Below are positions 2,251-38,174 of a DNA stretch of 39,167 nucleotides, piece after piece. The DNA lies in NCBI GenBank assembly GCA_029856155.1, contig JAHQWL010000049.1:1-39167 (forward strand), given 5' to 3'. Origin of the DNA: Promethearchaeia archaeon. Lineage in GTDB: Archaea > Asgardarchaeota > Lokiarchaeia > Sigyniarchaeales > SOKP01. Numbering within the stretch: the stretch's first letter is position 1; each line of letters begins with the position of its first letter. A program made the translations under genes and the position numbers. Below the pieces are notes generated by a model. The model saw nothing but the letters and a program-made list of their open reading frames with translations. It made no database searches and was not told the origin of the DNA.

Positions 2251-2775
2251 GTGATTTTTAAAATGTTCACTGGATTCATTAAGAAACGAAAAGTAAAAAA
2301 GGAAAAGGACGTAAAAGAGATTAACACTTCAGATAGTTTAGTTGAAAACACTATTATACAAAAAGAAGATACGATTATTGAGCCTGTAGAGAAAATATCT
2401 CAGAGAATAACAAATGATAAGAAACCTATAGTAGATTATCAAGAGATACAAAGAATACAAGATAAAGTTAAACTGAAAGGAAATATTAGAGAACAAGATC
2501 AAAAAACTAGTTTATTTTCATCCGATTTCAATCACGATGAATCTCTGATAGTCCCATTAAAAATTAAAGAAAAAATCGAAAGAATTATTTTAAAGATTCT
2601 ATATGATCAAAAAGCAGTAAAATCCTTAAAAGAATTAACTGAAAAAGCCTTAGACAGAGCAGCTAAAGAGAGAATCACGATTTCTGAAAAGTCTATAAAT
2701 TTGATAATTCTTCAAATAAATAAAGATGAAAAGATTCAATTCACTCAAAAAGATGGCTGGAAAATAAGAATTTAA
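2251..2775 (+). CDS. hypothetical protein with probable C-terminal winged-helix domain
   Basis: 174-aa ORF with charged low-complexity N-half. C-terminal IERIILKIL...SLKEL...SINLIILQINKDEKIQFTQKDGWKI fits three helices plus a beta-wing. Start may be the ATG at 2263. Confidence 0.55.
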   Translation: MIFKMFTGFIKKRKVKKEKDVKEINTSDSLVENTIIQKEDTIIEPVEKISQRITNDKKPIVDYQEIQRIQDKVKLKGNIREQDQKTSLFSSDFNHDESLIVPLKIKEKIERIILKILYDQKAVKSLKELTEKALDRAAKERITISEKSINLIILQINKDEKIQFTQKDGWKIRI

Positions 2776-23327: not shown

Positions 23328-23858
23328 CTAATTTTTTTTTCGATAGAGAAATCCTGGAAGCCATAAAATCATACCAAATAAGGCTCCTAATAAAAAAGTA
23401 ATTGAATCCCCCCACAGAAAAATTTTATAAATAATAGTTATAATAAGAACCATAATTCCAATTAGAAATCTTAATGGATGTTTAAATCGACTATTTGTAA
23501 CTTGATGAAATAAATAAAAAAATAATATAATTGCATGACCACTAAACGGAATACTTATAATATATCGAATGAAAGAAAAGAAACCAACGATTATACATTC
23601 AATAAACAATAATATATATGTTTTTCGCTCTTTTTTCTCATTCCAGAGCCAAATTACCTCACCTATTAAAATCCCATAAGGAACAAAAATTGAAATCATA
23701 TATAATGGGGGGGTAGAGATATTTAATGTCTCGGTAGCAGTATTAACTAAAGGATAACCTCTAATAGAGAAGAATATTACTGAAAGAATAACAATTATCA
23801 ATCCAGTTCCATAGATAATAATTAGTTCCTTCGTTGAAGTGACCGTTTTAATTATCAT
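23328..23858 (-). CDS. hypothetical membrane protein (about 5-6 TM)
   Basis: 176-aa hydrophobic ORF containing PFSGH, weakly like the PAP2 PSGH motif. Confidence 0.6.
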   Translation of the reverse strand: MIIKTVTSTKELIIIYGTGLIIVILSVIFFSIRGYPLVNTATETLNISTPPLYMISIFVPYGILIGEVIWLWNEKKERKTYILLFIECIIVGFFSFIRYIISIPFSGHAIILFFYLFHQVTNSRFKHPLRFLIGIMVLIITIIYKIFLWGDSITFLLGALFGMILWLPGFLYRKKN

Positions 23859-33338: not shown

Positions 33339-33773
33339 ATGATTGAAGAAGAAGACGACGAGGATATACTCAAAAAAGGAATTACTTTAAAAAGCGTTTT
33401 AAAAAACATTTTATTAGCCATATTAATCATTGTAGGATTAATGTTTATCTATTTAAATATTGGGGGAGATCAAGTCTCAAGTTGGTCAATTGGTTTTATC
33501 TTAATCTGTTTTGGGGCTACATTAATCCAAATCCAAAAAAGTCCCGCTGAACCTATTAGACAAACTTTAACAATTTTAATCTGTAAATTATGTGGAATTA
33601 CAAAAGTTAGAAATTATGAGAAAGGAGATTTTGTGTTTAAAAGGATAGATAAATGTGAAAAGTGCGAGGACCTTATGGAGATAAGACAAATATATTCAGT
33701 AAGATTAAAGAGTCCTACTGAAAAGAAGAAAGAAGACACAAGTAAGAAAGAAAATTTAAAAGGAAAAGAATAA
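33339..33773 (+). CDS. two-TM protein with C-terminal Zn-ribbon
   Basis: Two hydrophobic helices, then CKLC...RNYEKGDFVFK...CEKC. ATG 33339 preferred because 33240 leaves no room for divergent promoters. Confidence 0.7.
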   Translation: MIEEEDDEDILKKGITLKSVLKNILLAILIIVGLMFIYLNIGGDQVSSWSIGFILICFGATLIQIQKSPAEPIRQTLTILICKLCGITKVRNYEKGDFVFKRIDKCEKCEDLMEIRQIYSVRLKSPTEKKKEDTSKKENLKGKE

Positions 33774-33794
33774 ATTAAATTATTTTTTTTCTGA

Positions 33795-34256
33795 TTGGGG
33801 GTTTTTCAGATTCTAAAAAAAATTGGATTAGGGGGAACTTTCGATCATCTTCACGAGGGTCATAAATTTTTATTAAAAACAGCTTTATCCCTTTCTGAAT
33901 TTATAGAGATTGGATTAACATCTCAAGATTTATTAAAAAGTAAACAATATTCTTTAAAATTAGAAGATTACAAAACAAGAAAAGAGAATTTAATGACGTA
34001 TATTAATTCTTTTGCTGATTTAGAGCGAATTAATATTGTTGAAATAAAAAATTGGGCTGATATGGATAAATATGCTCAAGATCCAGAATACGAAGGATTA
34101 ATAGTCAGTCAAGAAACTTATGAAAATGCTTTAAAATTAAATGAGAATAGAGAGAAAAAAGGATTAAAACCCCTTATTCTAATCATTATTCCTTTACTAA
34201 AAGATAAAAACCAAAATAAAATTAGTTCTACATCTATTCGTGAAAAACTTCAATAG
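33795..34256 (+). CDS. coaD: archaeal-type phosphopantetheine adenylyltransferase
   Basis: GGTFDHLHEGH, IGLTS, IVSQET, ISSTSIR. True start may be ATT 33810. Confidence 0.9.
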   Translation: MGVFQILKKIGLGGTFDHLHEGHKFLLKTALSLSEFIEIGLTSQDLLKSKQYSLKLEDYKTRKENLMTYINSFADLERINIVEIKNWADMDKYAQDPEYEGLIVSQETYENALKLNENREKKGLKPLILIIIPLLKDKNQNKISSTSIREKLQ

Positions 34257-34348
34257 TAAAATTTTTTAGAATGTAATTATGTAATAAATTATTGTTTAAG
34301 TGAATTCTTGAGTGAAAAATTACGATTTTAAATAAATTTGGTATTCAA

Positions 34349-34411
34349 TTGAACTTAATTATTTTTCAAGATTCATTTCTATTTAATTTCTTTAATCCGC
34401 CAAGGGAATAA
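34349..34411 (+). CDS. candidate Phe-rich leader peptide MNLIIFQDSFLFNFFNPPRE
   Basis: TTG...TAA, 20 codons with 5 Phe (positions 6, 10, 12, 14, 15); upstream of pheST and overlapping a hairpin. Confidence 0.4.
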   Translation: MNLIIFQDSFLFNFFNPPRE

Positions 34412-34452
34412 GATTATTTAGCTGTAATTAAGCCCTTGGCTGCGGATTTTTT
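34394..34452 (+). terminator. GC-rich stem-loop with T-tract (terminator/attenuator-like)
   Basis: GCCAAGGG (34399-34406) pairs perfectly with CCCTTGGC (34433-34440); AATCC/GGATT extends the stem across a 3-nt bulge; ends in TTTTTT (34447-34452). Confidence 0.6.
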
Positions 34453-34616
34453 AGATTTTATTTTAATTGAGATCCAGAATTTTAATATTAAAGATAAAAG
34501 AAATTCTTTCTAATTCGAGATTAAGCGATTTAGAATGACTAAATCCACGAAAGATTTAAATACATTAGAGATTTTAAAAGATATAATAAAAAAGTAAAAA
34601 ATTTTAGCAAAAGCAT

Positions 34617-36152
34617 ATGACAATTAGACTTAAAAACCAAGTAATTGACATTTTAAAGGTATTAAAAAAAAAGAGTTCTGAAGTAATTGCAACAGATCTG
34701 GCAAAAGAATTGAAAATTGATTATATTGTACTTATGTCTGCAATTAATGATTTAATTGAGCATGATTTAGGAAGTTTCAGAGAAGAAGAGGTAAATCAGA
34801 TTTCATTAAATGAAGAAGGAATTAATTATTTAAAAAATGGACTTCCAGAACGTCAATTATTAAATATATTATTAGAAGACAATATTAAAGAATTAAATTT
34901 AGATGAATTCTTAAGAAAATCTCATTTAGATAGAAATATTTTTTATGTAGGTATTTCAAATTTAAAAAAGAAACGATGGATTGCGCAAAGTAAAGCTTCA
35001 GGAGAAAATAAAATATTTATTACTGCTGAAAATTTTCCTGAAACAGATTTTGAAAAATTTCTAAAAAAATTTAAAGAAAATTCTGTTATTGATCATTCTA
35101 CATTGTCTAAAAGTGAATTAAAACAATTGGATGTACTTAATAAAAGAAAGCTGGTTAAGAAAAATCATAGGACTGAAAGAATCATAAGTTTAACTGAAAA
35201 GGGTAAAAAAATTGACATCTCAAAAATTAAGGAATTAGAGCAAATTAGCAAAATTACTCCTGAGATGTTGATCTCCGGAACTTGGAAAAATTATGATTTA
35301 AAACCTTTTGATGTTACTAAACCAGGTCCATTATTAAAAGCAGGAAAATTGCATCCAATGATCAGATTAATTAATGAGATAAGAGAAATATTTATTTCAA
35401 TGGGATTTACTGAGATTAGAGGCCCGATAATCGAAAGTGCTTTTTATAATTTTGATGCTTTATTTCAACCCCAAGATCATCCGGCTCGAGAAATGCAAGA
35501 TACTTTCTATTTGAATAATCCTAAAGTTGCTAAATTGCCAGAAAGTGATAGGGTTCAAGCAGTTAAGGCAACACATGAGAATGGTGGGGATTCGGGGTCA
35601 CTTGGTTGGGGTTCTGAATGGGATGTTGAAATAGCAAAAAAAACAGTATTGAGAACTCATACTACAGCAACTACAATAAGAAGATTAGCAGAATTTTATA
35701 GAAATAAGGAAAAAGCACCAGTCAAAGTGTTCTGCATTGATAGAGTATTCAGAAATGAAAAAGTAGATAAATCACATTTAGCGGAGTTTACTCAAGTTGA
35801 AGGTATAGTTATTGATGATAATTTAACACTATGTGATTTAATTGGATTACTTAAAGAATTTTACAGAAAATTAGGATTTAAAAAGATTATAACAAGACCT
35901 GGATTTTTTCCGTATACTGAACCCAGTATGGAAGTTTCTGTATACTTTGATAAATTAGGTGAATGGCTAGAGTTTGGTGGCTCAGGAATCTTTAGACCTG
36001 AAGTTACATATCCTTGGGGGATTAAAGATCCAACTCGTGTTTTAGCATGGGGTCAAGGACTTGAGAGAATAGCTATGTTGTATTTTGATAGGAAGGATAT
36101 TAGAGATTTATATATTAACCCAATAAAATGGTTGAGGAATCAGTCATATTAA
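34617..36152 (+). CDS. pheS: phenylalanyl-tRNA synthetase alpha subunit (archaeal/eukaryotic long form)
   Basis: GLPERQL, GKLHP, NFDALFQPQDHPAREMQDTF, LRTHTT, RVFRNE, HLAEFTQVEG, FPYTEPS, GIFRPE, GLERIAM. Confidence 0.97.
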   Translation: MTIRLKNQVIDILKVLKKKSSEVIATDLAKELKIDYIVLMSAINDLIEHDLGSFREEEVNQISLNEEGINYLKNGLPERQLLNILLEDNIKELNLDEFLRKSHLDRNIFYVGISNLKKKRWIAQSKASGENKIFITAENFPETDFEKFLKKFKENSVIDHSTLSKSELKQLDVLNKRKLVKKNHRTERIISLTEKGKKIDISKIKELEQISKITPEMLISGTWKNYDLKPFDVTKPGPLLKAGKLHPMIRLINEIREIFISMGFTEIRGPIIESAFYNFDALFQPQDHPAREMQDTFYLNNPKVAKLPESDRVQAVKATHENGGDSGSLGWGSEWDVEIAKKTVLRTHTTATTIRRLAEFYRNKEKAPVKVFCIDRVFRNEKVDKSHLAEFTQVEGIVIDDNLTLCDLIGLLKEFYRKLGFKKIITRPGFFPYTEPSMEVSVYFDKLGEWLEFGGSGIFRPEVTYPWGIKDPTRVLAWGQGLERIAMLYFDRKDIRDLYINPIKWLRNQSY

Positions 36153-36170
36153 TAGGGAGGTTTTGAAAAA

Positions 36171-37847
36171 TTGCCAACATTAGAACTTAAACTTGATCGA
36201 TTAGAAAAACTAGTAGGAAAAAGATTAGATATTAAGGATTTAGAATATGATTTGCAATGGATTGGTTTAGATTTAGAAGATATAAATGAGGAAGAGCAAA
36301 AGATTAAAGTTGAATATAATCCAAATAGACCTGACTTTTCTAGTCCTGAAGGAATTGCCAGAGCTCTTCAGGGATTTTATGAAATTGAGTTAGGAATACC
36401 TTCTTTCGAAATTTCTCCTGGAGAAATAGTACTAAATGTAGATCCAATCGTTAATAAAGTTAGACCATATATAGTCTGTGGAGTAATTAGAGATATTGAT
36501 TTAGATGAAGATGAGGTTGCAACTTTGATGAATATCCAAGAACATTTACACTGGGCAGTTGGACGAGATAGAAAAAAAGTGGCAATAGGTGTTCATGATC
36601 TTGATAAAATTACACCTCCTTATCGATATACCGCAGTTAAACCAGATTCTGTAAGTTTCATTCCATTGCATGGTGATGGATATCCTATGAATTTAGAAGA
36701 AATTTTATTATTACATGAAAAAGGAATTGAATATGCTCATATTTTAGAAGGTAAAGAAGTTTACCCTATAATTTTTGATAATAATAATGAGGTTTTATCC
36801 TTTCCTCCAGTTATAAATGGAATATTGACAACAGTTACAGATGATACCAAAAATCTATTTTTAGATTTAACTGGAACAGATTTTAAAGCTGTTAATTTAG
36901 CTTTAAATATTCTATCAACAACTTTAGCAGATATGGGCGCTAAAATTGAAAGTGTTAAGGTAAATTATGAGAAAGGGAAGGAGATTATCACCCCCAATCT
37001 GAATCCTGAGAAGTGGGAGGTGGGGATTGATTACATTAACGATTATATAGGAATTAGTTTATCTCCAAAAGATATGATAAAATGTTTTAATAAAGTTAGA
37101 TTAGATGCTAAACAATCAAATAAGAAAAGATATTTAGATGTATGGGTACCAGCATTTAGAGGAGATATTATGCACGTTGTTGATTTTACCGAAGAATGCG
37201 CAATTGGATATGGATATGATAAACTACCTACAACCATTAGAGAAGGATGTATCGGAAAATATCATCCGATTCAATCTTTTTCGAATAAAATTCGGACTAT
37301 AATGATTGGAGCGGGATATTTAGAAGTCTTGAACTTTATTTTATCCAACTCTGAAAAGCTTTATAATTATATGAAACAAGAGTATGAAGAAACAAGTCAT
37401 GTACAGATTTCAAATCCTGTATCAAAAGAATATAATACAACAAGAACAGCTATATTACCTAAATTGCTGGAGACTCTGTCAAACAATAGATCTGAAGAAA
37501 AACCTATAAGAATTTTCGAAGTTGGGGATATTGTTTTGCTAGATAGTAGTAAAGAAACGGGGACAAGAAGAGAAATTCATGTCGCAGCAACAACATATCA
37601 TGAACATTCAGATTTCACAGAGATTAGATCTACTTTAGATTTTATTATAACTTCATTAGGGTGTTATGATGATTATGAAATTAAACCTGACAAAAATCCT
37701 ACTTATCTTGAAGGTAGATATGGGAGTGTTTATTTGAAAGGAAACAAAATTGGAGAGATCGGTGAAATACACCCAGAAGTTTTGTTAAATTTCAAATTAA
37801 AATTTCCTGTTGCAGCTTTAGAACTAAATTTAGAGTACTTATTTTAA
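36171..37847 (+). CDS. pheT: phenylalanyl-tRNA synthetase beta subunit (archaeal type)
   Basis: MPT start, NPNRPD, RKKVAIGVHD, SFPPVIN, RGDIMHVVDFTEE, SNP, IFEVGD, GEIHPEVL; TTG start with AGGGAGGT SD at 36154-36161. Confidence 0.96.
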   Translation: MPTLELKLDRLEKLVGKRLDIKDLEYDLQWIGLDLEDINEEEQKIKVEYNPNRPDFSSPEGIARALQGFYEIELGIPSFEISPGEIVLNVDPIVNKVRPYIVCGVIRDIDLDEDEVATLMNIQEHLHWAVGRDRKKVAIGVHDLDKITPPYRYTAVKPDSVSFIPLHGDGYPMNLEEILLLHEKGIEYAHILEGKEVYPIIFDNNNEVLSFPPVINGILTTVTDDTKNLFLDLTGTDFKAVNLALNILSTTLADMGAKIESVKVNYEKGKEIITPNLNPEKWEVGIDYINDYIGISLSPKDMIKCFNKVRLDAKQSNKKRYLDVWVPAFRGDIMHVVDFTEECAIGYGYDKLPTTIREGCIGKYHPIQSFSNKIRTIMIGAGYLEVLNFILSNSEKLYNYMKQEYEETSHVQISNPVSKEYNTTRTAILPKLLETLSNNRSEEKPIRIFEVGDIVLLDSSKETGTRREIHVAATTYHEHSDFTEIRSTLDFIITSLGCYDDYEIKPDKNPTYLEGRYGSVYLKGNKIGEIGEIHPEVLLNFKLKFPVAALELNLEYLF

Positions 37848-37895
37848 AAATATATATTTTTTTTTATTTCTAATTAATTGTGGTGGTGTTATTAT

Positions 37896-38174
37896 ATGAA
37901 AGAACGTAATGCCGTTAAAAAGGAAATAGAGTTATATAGGAAAGAAATTGATGAAATTGATAATCAAATGATTAACCTCTTAAATACAAGAGTAGAATTT
38001 GCCAAGAAAATCGGAAATCTTAAAAAATTAGTTGATATGGATGTATCTCAACCAAAAAGGGAAAAAGAAATCATTAAACGAATGAAAGATAAATCTATTT
38101 TACTAAATGAGGATACTATTGAAGCTATATGGAAAGAAATTATAAATGCTTGTAAATTTATCCAAAAAATATAA
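37896..38174 (+). CDS. monofunctional chorismate mutase, AroQ/type II
   Basis: YRKEIDEIDNQMINLLNTR, IGNLKK, PKREKEII. ATG 37896 follows a GGTGGTG SD-like motif. Confidence 0.85.
   Translation: MKERNAVKKEIELYRKEIDEIDNQMINLLNTRVEFAKKIGNLKKLVDMDVSQPKREKEIIKRMKDKSILLNEDTIEAIWKEIINACKFIQKI

What the first reader, a model, noticed from the sequence alone, without database searches (positions are those of the whole stretch)
34349..34452. Candidate Phe-sensing leader-peptide attenuator upstream of pheS-pheT-chorismate mutase in an archaeon
Seen: the 360-bp coaD-pheS gap holds a TTG-started ORF MNLIIFQDSFLFNFFNPPRE* with four Phe codons in a six-codon stretch (FLFNFF). That stretch ends at 34393, exactly where the only strong GC-rich hairpin I found in an intergenic region begins (34394-34448); the stop codon is in the loop and a T6 tract ends the hairpin. 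Established: E. coli pheST (pheM) and pheA (pheL) are controlled by Phe-rich leaders with terminator hairpins, and TTG starts are common in this window. Inference: a ribosome stalled on Phe14/15 would mask the 5' arm and allow read-through, while completed translation would let the hairpin form and terminate. I know of no such pheST control described in Asgard archaea. Caveats: TTT codons are common by chance in T-rich DNA, the SD is weak, archaeal termination is not usually hairpin-dependent, and pheS may have its own TATA near 34555-34590.
Basis: partly seen in the sequence, partly recalled or inferred. Interest (0 to 1): 0.85.

Follow-up and report, generated by a model that had tools for sequence, protein, structure and literature searches.

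The report
Phenylalanine-sensing leader peptide before archaeal pheS
A tiny upstream gene packed with phenylalanine codons and ending inside a conserved RNA hairpin sits in front of the phenylalanyl-tRNA synthetase genes across a whole family of Lokiarchaeia; it looks like the ribosome-read amino-acid gauges of bacteria, and I found no published archaeal example.

Summary
The TTG ORF (34349-34411) and the hairpin (34394-34448, then T6) are as described.

The ORF is the 3' two-thirds of a conserved reading frame of about 29 codons (34322-34411). That frame is open in all 42 distinct relatives aligned and starts with ATG in 38. It carries five Phe positions (FFFxFF) kept in 29-42 of 42 sequences. 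This genome has ACG where relatives have ATG.

The hairpin core GCCAAGG/CCUUGGC is invariant, and its flanks and a second stem (P1) covary. A covariance model finds one copy per genome in 99 of 131 genomes of the family (11 genera) and none in 19 genomes of sister families. It lay directly upstream of pheS at every locus inspected.

The same genome also has a Trp-codon leader (WQWPWRWQ*) before a TrpB-like gene and a Leu-run leader (LLLLLLL*) before leuA. Both are conserved in relatives.

I therefore read the element as a ribosome-mediated Phe sensor for pheS-pheT-chorismate mutase. The output step is not settled. The U-tract after the hairpin is only partly conserved, and a strong BRE/TATA for pheS lies downstream of the hairpin.

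This scan noted the same class before on other Asgard DNA. I found no published archaeal case.

The parts
34257..34269 (+). Conserved T-rich box (AAAATTTTTTAG), about 35 nt before P1. It is a candidate BRE/TATA of the leader transcript, or else a leaky oligo-T terminator of the upstream gene.
   Evidence: The box is kept at a fixed distance from the leader in all orthologues. This holds where coaD ends 100-150 nt further upstream and where coaD is absent. Its promoter role is inferred. ATTTTTTA shows no positional peak before genes in this genome.
34301..34311 (+). P1 5' strand (UGAAUUCUUGA).
   Evidence: It pairs with 34366-75. 83% of cells are paired across 42 sequences. One pair changes U-A to G-C in 9 sequences, and the third copy of the motif near the pheS promoter does not change with it.
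34322..34411 (+). Conserved leader reading frame, about 29 codons. ACG replaces the family ATG at 34322 here.
   Evidence: Frame 0 is open in 30 of 30 sequences, against 2 and 1 of 30 for the other two frames. There are no indels over 90 nt within the genus and only whole-codon indels in more distant members. ATG is present in 38 of 42 and TTG in the remaining 4, this genome included.
34366..34375 (+). P1 3' strand (UCAAGAUUCA), which encodes the QDS codons.
34376..34393 (+). Phe-codon tract. It reads F L F N F F here; the family consensus is F F F x F F.
   Evidence: The five Phe positions are Phe in 33, 29, 31, 33 and 42 of 42 sequences. TTT and TTC interchange at these positions. The spacer codon between the two clusters varies at all three codon positions.
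34394..34448 (+). P2 hairpin. The 5' arm is the last five codons plus the stop. The core is GCCAAGGG (34399-406) paired with CCCUUGGC (34433-40).
   Evidence: The core is invariant in 42 of 42 sequences. Flanking pairs covary (A-U 16 / U-A 10; G-C 28 / G-U 10 / A-U 3). The G-U pairs fit only the + strand. Cells with changes on both sides number 36, against 21.9 +/- 3.0 in shuffles (0 of 500 shuffles reach it). 86% of cells are paired, against 33-51% when the partner is slid.
34447..34452 (+). T6 tract right after P2, a possible archaeal U-tract terminator.
   Evidence: It is present in this clade only. Across the family, a run of T5 or more within 13 nt occurs in 13 of 49 instances (baseline 9%), and T4 or more within 25 nt in 36 of 49 (baseline 38%).
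34507..34526 (+). Conserved block TTTCTAATTCGAGATTAAGC upstream of the pheS promoter. Its function is unknown; it may be a regulator site.
   Evidence: It is nearly invariant in the alignment. It forms a conserved inverted repeat with ATTAGAG after the TATA box.
34548..34562 (+). BRE/TATA-like pheS promoter (CGAAAG-A-TTTAAATA), 62 nt before the pheS ATG.
   Evidence: It is almost invariant. Variants are TTTATATA, TTTATAAA and TTTAAAAA, which are typical A/T swaps in a TATA box. TTTAAATA is the top 8-mer before genes in this genome and peaks 60-80 nt upstream of start codons.
34617..38174 (+). The putatively regulated genes: pheS (34617-36152), pheT (36171-37847) and chorismate mutase (37878-38174).
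   Evidence: Pfam matches tRNA-synt_2d, tRNA_synthFbeta/B5/B3_4 and CM_2.

Best explanation
The coaD-pheS spacer holds a cis-regulatory leader in which the ribosome senses the supply of charged tRNA-Phe.

Proposed mechanism:
1. A short transcript starts upstream of 34300. This is inferred from the conserved T-rich box at 34257-69.
2. It carries a small ORF of about 29 codons in the family. In this genome the ORF is about 20 codons from TTG 34349, because the ATG has become ACG.
3. The second half of the ORF holds a cluster of Phe codons (FFFxFF). Its last five codons and the stop form the 5' arm of a strong conserved hairpin (P2).
4. When Phe-tRNA is scarce, a ribosome stalls on the Phe codons. 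Its footprint then covers the 5' arm, which starts 0-6 nt after the last Phe codon, so P2 cannot form.
5. When Phe-tRNA is plentiful, the ribosome finishes and leaves, and P2 forms.
6. P2 formation lowers read-through into pheS-pheT-chorismate mutase. The most likely route is favoured termination or cleavage at the U-rich stretch after the hairpin. The pheS promoter at 34548-62 supplies basal expression of these essential genes.

Shown here: the conserved translatable frame, the conserved Phe codons, the conserved strand-specific hairpin, the strict pheS linkage across a family, and parallel cognate leaders for Trp and Leu. Inferred: translation, stalling, the transcript ends and the output step.
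For: (1) Coding signature. The frame is open in 30 of 30 genus sequences, against 2 and 1 of 30 for the other frames, with no indels over 90 nt although the N-terminal half is highly diverged. All 42 distinct sequences keep the frame; 38 start with ATG, and indels are whole codons.

(2) Phe codons. They are kept at five positions (29-42 of 42 sequences), with TTT/TTC interchange and a freely varying spacer codon. In ten other genera the peptides still end ...FFxFF(I/N)(L/P)PRE*.

(3) P2. The core is invariant and the flanks covary. G-U pairs fit only the + strand.

(4) Distribution. Model R1 finds one hit per genome in 99 of 131 family genomes across 11 genera, 0 of 14, 0 of 1 and 0 of 4 in sister families, and a single copy in this genome. 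pheS lies directly downstream wherever the contig allows. That covers 33 loci, 8 more, 18 of 20 loci from other genera by automatic check, and 6 of 7 metagenome contigs, the seventh ending before pheS. Several of these loci have no coaD upstream.

(5) Sister family. In the family with Promethearchaeum, coaD and pheS are only about 95 nt apart, where checked, and no leader is present.

(6) Rank in this genome. The element is first of 166 Phe-rich small ORFs for downstream structure.

(7) Cognate parallels in the same genome. The best Trp-run small ORF, MATVRNFGWQWPWRWQ*, lies before a TrpB-like enzyme (NF009057, 624 bits). It is conserved in 30 genomes with 3-5 Trp codons, its stop in a hairpin loop, and a T5-T7 tract after the stop in 28 of 30, at +31 nt in most. 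A Leu-run ORF tied for the top Leu score (four-way tie)...LLLLLLL*, lies 87 nt before leuA and is conserved in 10 genomes with a covarying hairpin.

(8) A weak SD is no objection. Only 36% of genes here have even a 4-mer SD.
Against: - A strongly conserved BRE/TATA for pheS lies downstream of the hairpin. pheS therefore need not depend on the leader transcript, and read-through from the leader is unproven.
- The U-tract after P2 is not conserved. A run of T5 or more occurs within 13 nt in only 13 of 49 instances, and some lineages have no T4 within 25 nt.
- Archaeal termination is U-tract and aCPSF1 driven, with no requirement for a hairpin (PMC8716108).
- No clear mutually exclusive antiterminator was found. 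There are only weak pairings between the pyrimidine-rich Phe tract and the purine-rich 5' arm.
- A ribosome at the stop codon also masks the 5' arm, so the discrimination has to be kinetic.
- Conservation of QDS and LPRE can be explained by P1 and P2 rather than by the peptide.
- In this genome the family ATG is lost (ACG), so translation must start at TTG or at a near-cognate codon.
- There are no expression data.
Confidence: 0.72

Rival explanations
1. An independent small gene. The 29-codon ORF encodes a functional micro-protein, or the roughly 150-nt transcript is a dual-function sRNA. It has its own promoter (34257-69) and a 3' stem-loop (P2) that stabilises or ends the transcript. It acts in trans, and its position next to pheS is only inherited gene order.
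For: A promoter-like box lies upstream, and a separate, strong pheS promoter lies downstream. P1 and P2 flank a U-rich linker, as in stable small RNAs. The C-terminal motif FFxLPRE* is conserved across genera. Bacterial attenuator RNAs and leader peptides can act in trans, as with rnTrpL/peTrpL (PMC7298713, PMC7968998).
Against: The N-terminal half is essentially unconstrained in sequence. The element was not seen away from pheS, with one model hit per genome in 99 genomes of 11 genera, even where the upstream neighbour changes. The matching Trp and Leu leaders before trpB-like and leuA genes show that the enriched amino acid tracks the downstream gene. A generic micro-protein would not predict that.
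Confidence: 0.13
2. A protein-binding RNA or DNA operator. The invariant GCCAAGG/CCUUGGC stem, or the repeated TCAAGAT motifs, is recognised by a regulator such as PheRS itself or a transcription factor. The open frame is secondary.
For: The 7-bp core never varies in 42 sequences, although PheS diverges to roughly 55-65% identity in other genera (local N-terminal tblastn matches). That is more constraint than pairing alone requires. TCAAGA(T) occurs three times: inverted at 34304-14, direct at 34366-72, and TTCGAGAT at 34514-21.
Against: This does not explain the open frame in all sequences, the conserved start codon, the whole-codon indels or the Phe codon pattern. The core is also constrained by the Pro-Arg codons. 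When the motif in P1 changes, its partner changes with it but the third copy does not, which fits RNA pairing better than a shared protein site. The hairpin does not resemble this genome's tRNA-Phe beyond a GCC start.
Confidence: 0.08
3. Terminator of coaD, or a chance ORF in T-rich DNA.
For: The hairpin plus T6 in this genome resembles a terminator. Phe-rich small ORFs are common here, at 177 in the genome.
Against: The element is kept where coaD is not the upstream gene. coaD has its own T6 just 6 nt after its stop. The frame, the start codon and the Phe codons are conserved over 11 genera.
Confidence: 0.02

Closest known systems
E. coli pheM-pheST and pheL-pheA leader-peptide transcription attenuators (from established knowledge; other bacterial examples appear in PMC2965389 and PMC1262725)
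   Same: A short ORF with a run of Phe codons lies immediately upstream of Phe-tRNA synthetase or Phe-biosynthesis genes. The regulatory codons sit just before a strong hairpin. The logic is that a stalled ribosome reshapes the leader RNA.
   Different: There is no sequence or model similarity, and Rfam gives no hit. The host is an Asgard archaeon with archaeal RNA polymerase. No clear 1:2/2:3/3:4 set of alternative stems was found. The stop codon lies inside the hairpin. The U-tract is not conserved. A separate gene promoter lies between the leader and pheS.
Bacterial trpL, leuL and hisL attenuators as a class (Rfam Trp_leader, Leu_leader, His_leader)
   Same: The same genome carries Trp-run and Leu-run leaders before a trpB-like gene and leuA. 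It therefore has a set of cognate leaders, as enterobacteria do.
   Different: The origin is independent. In the Trp leader a conserved T5-T7 tract lies about 20 nt after the hairpin rather than abutting it.
Sinorhizobium trpL attenuator with trans-acting rnTrpL / peTrpL (PMC7298713, PMC7968998)
   Same: The leader unit could end as a separate small RNA or peptide that has functions of its own.
   Different: There is no evidence here for trans action.
Polycysteine leaderless uORFs of mycobacteria (bioRxiv 10.1101/834739), and arrest peptides such as TnaC or eukaryotic conserved-peptide uORFs
   Same: These are small ORFs whose translation reports amino-acid status to downstream genes without a classical terminator switch. 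The conserved C-terminal peptide next to the stop codon is a shared feature.
   Different: Those systems act on translation, on Rho access, or sense the free amino acid through the nascent chain. Here the cognate codon runs (Phe, Trp, Leu) point to sensing of charged tRNA.

Membership tests
Leader-peptide (ribosome-mediated) transcription attenuator | A short ORF in the leader, enriched in codons of the amino acid related to the downstream genes | tested here: met
   FFFxFF is kept in 29-42 of 42 sequences. The frame is open in all, and ATG or TTG starts are present.
Leader-peptide (ribosome-mediated) transcription attenuator | The leader ORF lies on the same transcript as the regulated genes, downstream of their promoter | not testable with these tools
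   A promoter-like box lies upstream of the leader, but a strong BRE/TATA lies between the leader and pheS. Transcript maps are needed.
Leader-peptide (ribosome-mediated) transcription attenuator | A terminator (hairpin followed by a U-tract) after the ORF | tested here: inconclusive
   The hairpin is conserved everywhere. A run of T5 or more lies within 13 nt in only 13 of 49 instances; this is enriched over the 9% baseline but not universal.
Leader-peptide (ribosome-mediated) transcription attenuator | A mutually exclusive antiterminator structure selected by ribosome position | tested here: inconclusive
   Only weak conserved pairings of 6-7 bp were found, between the Phe tract and the 5' arm of P2. 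The direct-masking model does not need one.
Rfam leader families (Phe/Leu/Trp/His/Thr leaders) and T-box | A match to the curated covariance model | tested here: not met
   No match even at E <= 10 over 33700-35000. The element is analogous, not homologous.
Stand-alone small protein gene | Sequence constraint along the peptide, and occurrence independent of one neighbouring gene | tested here: not met
   The N-terminal half is unconstrained. The element is next to pheS at every locus inspected, with one model hit per genome.

The most novel reading that the evidence does not exclude
Lokiarchaeia of this family run a set of ribosome-mediated attenuators, with Phe, Trp and Leu leaders at least. 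These evolved independently of the bacterial ones and work with archaeal machinery (U-tract/aCPSF1-type termination or RNA processing). If so, regulatory use of transcription-translation coupling exists in the closest prokaryotic relatives of eukaryotes. The pheS version uses a two-promoter design: constitutive basal expression plus starvation-induced read-through.
Probability: 0.5. Interest if true: 0.9.

Novelty: new variant of a known kind. Interest (0 to 1): 0.8.

Why it matters
Leader-peptide attenuation is a textbook bacterial mechanism that depends on ribosomes following RNA polymerase closely. My literature searches found no archaeal example.

A conserved, family-wide Phe leader before pheST, with Trp and Leu counterparts in the same genome, would show three things. 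Asgard archaea gauge amino-acid supply through the ribosome. The device arose independently of bacteria. It must interface with an archaeal, eukaryote-like transcription apparatus.

It also gives concrete, testable elements for studying transcription-translation coupling and termination in this lineage. In addition, it flags unannotated small ORFs that genome annotation misses.

Tried and rejected
- **Rfam.** A scan of 33700-35000 at E <= 10 gave only noise.
- **Repeat or mobile element.** The hairpin is single-copy in the genome.
- **Minus-strand RNA.** Rejected, because the G-U pairs would become A-C mismatches.
- **coaD terminator.** Rejected.
- **tRNA-Phe acceptor-stem or T-box-like mimic.** This genome's tRNA-Phe starts GCCUCUG. 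It shares only GCC with the hairpin, and no CCA or UGGN logic fits.
- **RNAalifold.** On the whole spacer it recovers only the invariant P2 core. P1 and the P2 extensions had to be specified by hand.
- **Long-range pairing of the leader with the pheS 5' UTR.** No covariation was seen (alignments).
- **Sigma-70 and bacterial terminator scan.** Uninformative for an archaeon.
- **Metagenome pattern scan.** Filtering those 80 with model R1 left 7 true instances.
- **His-rich small ORF before hisIE.** It is not conserved in relatives, so it is not counted as support.
- **Other amino-acid-run small ORFs.** Most lie before unrelated genes.

Full report
**1. What is in the sequence**

The 360-nt spacer between a coaD-like cytidylyltransferase gene (33795-34256) and pheS (34617-36152) is followed by pheT and a type II chorismate mutase (Pfam).

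- A TTG-started ORF, MNLIIFQDSFLFNFFNPPRE*, spans 34349-34411.
- A hairpin spans 34394-34448. It consists of AAUCC/GGAUU plus GCCAAGGG/CCCUUGGC, with a UGC bulge.
- The stop codon lies in the apical part of the hairpin, and T6 is at 34447-52.

The fold of 141 nt gives -28.7 kcal/mol, z = -2.3. No Rfam family matches, and the hairpin is single-copy in the genome.

A Phe-rich small ORF is not remarkable on its own in this 30% G+C genome: 177 of 10,228 small intergenic ORFs have at least 4 Phe in 6 codons. Among those, this one ranks first of 166 for the stability of what follows it.

**2. Comparative evidence that the ORF is real**

The spacer is conserved at 68-84% identity in same-genus genomes. 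Alignment of 30 genus genomes, and then of 42 distinct sequences, gave the following.

- That frame is open in 30 of 30 sequences, while the other two frames are open in 2 and 1 of 30. There are no indels over 90 nt, although the first 15 codons are almost unconstrained in sequence.
- ATG stands at the same column in most sequences, and 38 of 42 have an in-frame ATG. The more divergent members differ by whole codons only.
- In this window the ATG column reads ACG (34322-24). The nearest relative also has ACG there, but has an ATG two codons upstream.
- TTG-only frames also occur in other members.

The consensus peptide is M-x8-L-(K/N)-x3-(F/Y)-QDSFFFxFF(I/N)LPR(E/D)*. The five Phe positions are Phe in 33, 29, 31, 33 and 42 of 42 sequences, with TTT/TTC interchange. 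The spacer codon between the two Phe clusters varies at all three codon positions.

Shine-Dalgarno use is low genome-wide, with 36% of genes having a 4-mer match. The weak SD is therefore no argument against translation.

**3. RNA structure**

The hairpin core GCCAAGG/CCUUGGC is invariant. Pairs flanking it covary: A-U 16 / U-A 10, and G-C 28 / G-U 10 / A-U 3. The many G-U pairs fit only the + strand.

A second helix, P1, pairs 34301-11 with 34366-75 (the QDS codons). One of its pairs switches U-A to G-C in 9 sequences.

Over both helices, 86% of cells pair, against 33-51% when the partner is slid. Cells with changes on both sides number 36, against 21.9 +/- 3.0 in shuffles (0 of 500 shuffles reach this; smaller set). 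These counts come from related sequences and few independent events, so I take them as moderate support.

RNAalifold alone recovers only the invariant core.

**4. Distribution and linkage**

A covariance model built from the alignment finds one hit per genome in 99 of 131 sampled genomes of the family, across 11 genera. It finds none in 14, 1 and 4 genomes of three sister families. It finds only the known copy in this genome.

- In the sister family that includes Promethearchaeum syntrophicum, coaD and pheS are about 95 nt apart where I checked, and no leader is present.
- pheS lay directly downstream wherever the contig allowed. The loci inspected were 33 genus loci, 8 divergent genus loci, 20 loci from ten other genera (18 confirmed by the automatic check), and 7 metagenome contigs, one of which ends before pheS.
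- This also holds where coaD is not the upstream gene.
- In other genera the N-terminus and the length vary (20-37 codons), but the peptides still end ...FFxFF(I/N)(L/P)PRE*.

**5. Independent support from the same genome**

I scanned all small ORFs upstream of genes for runs of one amino acid.

- **Trp.** The best Trp hit is MATVRNFGWQWPWRWQ* on contig C82, upstream of a TrpB-like PLP enzyme (NF009057, 624 bits). It is conserved in 30 genomes with 3-5 Trp codons, while the residues between them vary. Its stop codon lies in the loop of a covarying hairpin. A T5-T7 tract follows the stop in 28 of 30 genomes, at +31 nt in most.
- **Leu.** A Leu hit tied for the top score with three others...ELMSLLLLLLL*, lies 87 nt before leuA (HMGL-like plus LeuA_dimer). 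It is conserved in 10 genomes with a covarying GC hairpin right after the stop.
- **His.** A His-rich ORF before hisIE is not conserved and is not counted.

In all three solid cases a GC-rich hairpin begins within 0-15 nt of the last regulatory codon. That is inside the expected footprint of a ribosome stalled there (an inference from general knowledge of footprint size). The enriched amino acid tracks the downstream gene, and this is the key argument for a sensing leader over a generic small protein.

**6. What remains open**

The output step is not established.

- **U-tract.** The U-tract after P2 is enriched but not conserved. A run of T5 or more lies within 13 nt in 13 of 49 instances against a 9% baseline, and several lineages have none.
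- **Termination.** Archaeal terminators are U-tracts acting with aCPSF1, without a required hairpin (PMC8716108).
- **Downstream promoter.** An almost invariant BRE/TATA (CGAAAG-A-TTTAAATA, 34548-62) lies between the hairpin and pheS. It sits at the distance where TTTAAATA peaks before genes in this genome. Its variants are typical TATA A/T swaps. pheS therefore very probably has its own promoter.
- **Upstream box.** The conserved T-rich box at 34257-69 travels with the leader regardless of the upstream gene. It may be the leader's promoter.

I therefore favour a two-promoter design: basal expression from the pheS promoter, plus Phe-starvation-dependent read-through from the leader. Read-through is inferred, not shown.

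No convincing antiterminator was found; only weak pairings link the pyrimidine-rich Phe tract to the purine-rich 5' arm. The invariance of the hairpin core leaves room for a protein partner.

**7. Comparison and novelty**

Functionally this is closest to the E. coli pheM-pheST and pheL-pheA attenuators, but it is not homologous to them and differs in architecture. Four literature searches found leader-peptide attenuation only in bacteria.

Earlier notes of this scan report the same class on other Asgard genomes: a Phe leader before pheS, Trp leaders before trpB2, and other cognate mini-genes. They agree with what I found. I had found the Trp leader here before reading them, and I used one of them as a lead for the Leu and His checks.

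**Verdict.** The Phe-sensing leader reading is well supported, and the terminator mechanism is only partly supported. It is a new variant of a known kind of control, in a domain where I found no published example.

Noticed in passing
Same genome, contig C82, minus strand, about 108242-108292 (locus L298 about 2742-2792, minus): A 16-codon ORF, MATVRNFGWQWPWRWQ*, has four Trp codons and its stop in the loop of a small GC hairpin. T4/T6/T4 tracts, an AT-rich hairpin and a BRE/TATA-like box follow, upstream of a TrpB-like PLP enzyme (C82:106679-108094). It is conserved in 30 genomes of the genus, with 3-5 Trp codons and a T5-T7 tract after the stop in 28 of 30, at +31 nt in most.
   Followed up: partly
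Same genome, contig C26, minus strand, about 89532-89633: A 33-codon ORF ending ...ELMSLLLLLLL* lies 87 nt upstream of leuA (C26:87822-89444). A GC hairpin (GCCCU...AGGGC) with a T5 in its loop follows. It is conserved in 10 genus genomes in two subclades (LLLLLLL* or LxLLLL*), with covariation in the hairpin.
   Followed up: partly
Same genome, contig C66, spacer 23464-23842, minus strand: A His-rich small ORF (...NHIMHHFPTHK*) lies 86 nt upstream of hisIE (PRA-CH + PRA-PH). The region has no conserved counterpart in the other 53 genus genomes, so it may be chance.
   Followed up: partly
Same genome, contig C26, spacer 185426-185648, minus strand: An Ile-rich small ORF (MKMISFIRNEIKIIIINLIIINFSFL) ends 2 nt before a branched-chain amino-acid ABC permease gene (BPD_transp_2). 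It could be a leader, or a miscalled N-terminus.
   Followed up: no
window 34507-34600: The region around the pheS promoter is more conserved than the PheS protein. An inverted repeat, TTCTAAT (34508-14) and ATTAGAG (34565-71), brackets the BRE/TATA, and a third copy of the TCAAGAT-like motif (TTCGAGAT) lies at 34514-21. This may be a regulator binding site.
   Followed up: partly
Same-genus genomes G003, G005, G007, G013, G014, G016, G049, G062, G063: Neither PheS (N-terminal 261 aa, E <= 1e-20) nor the leader model was found in these nine genomes. Several of them are 95-100% complete. The locus may be unassembled or withheld, or these genomes may carry a divergent PheRS.
   Followed up: no
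Locus L298 about 2593-2650, minus strand (just before the TrpB-like start): A conserved hairpin, CACACATC...GGTGTG, contains the SD-like GGTG and is followed by a 6-codon mini-ORF (MNINGN*) that overlaps the TrpB-like start. This may be a second, translational layer of control.
   Followed up: no
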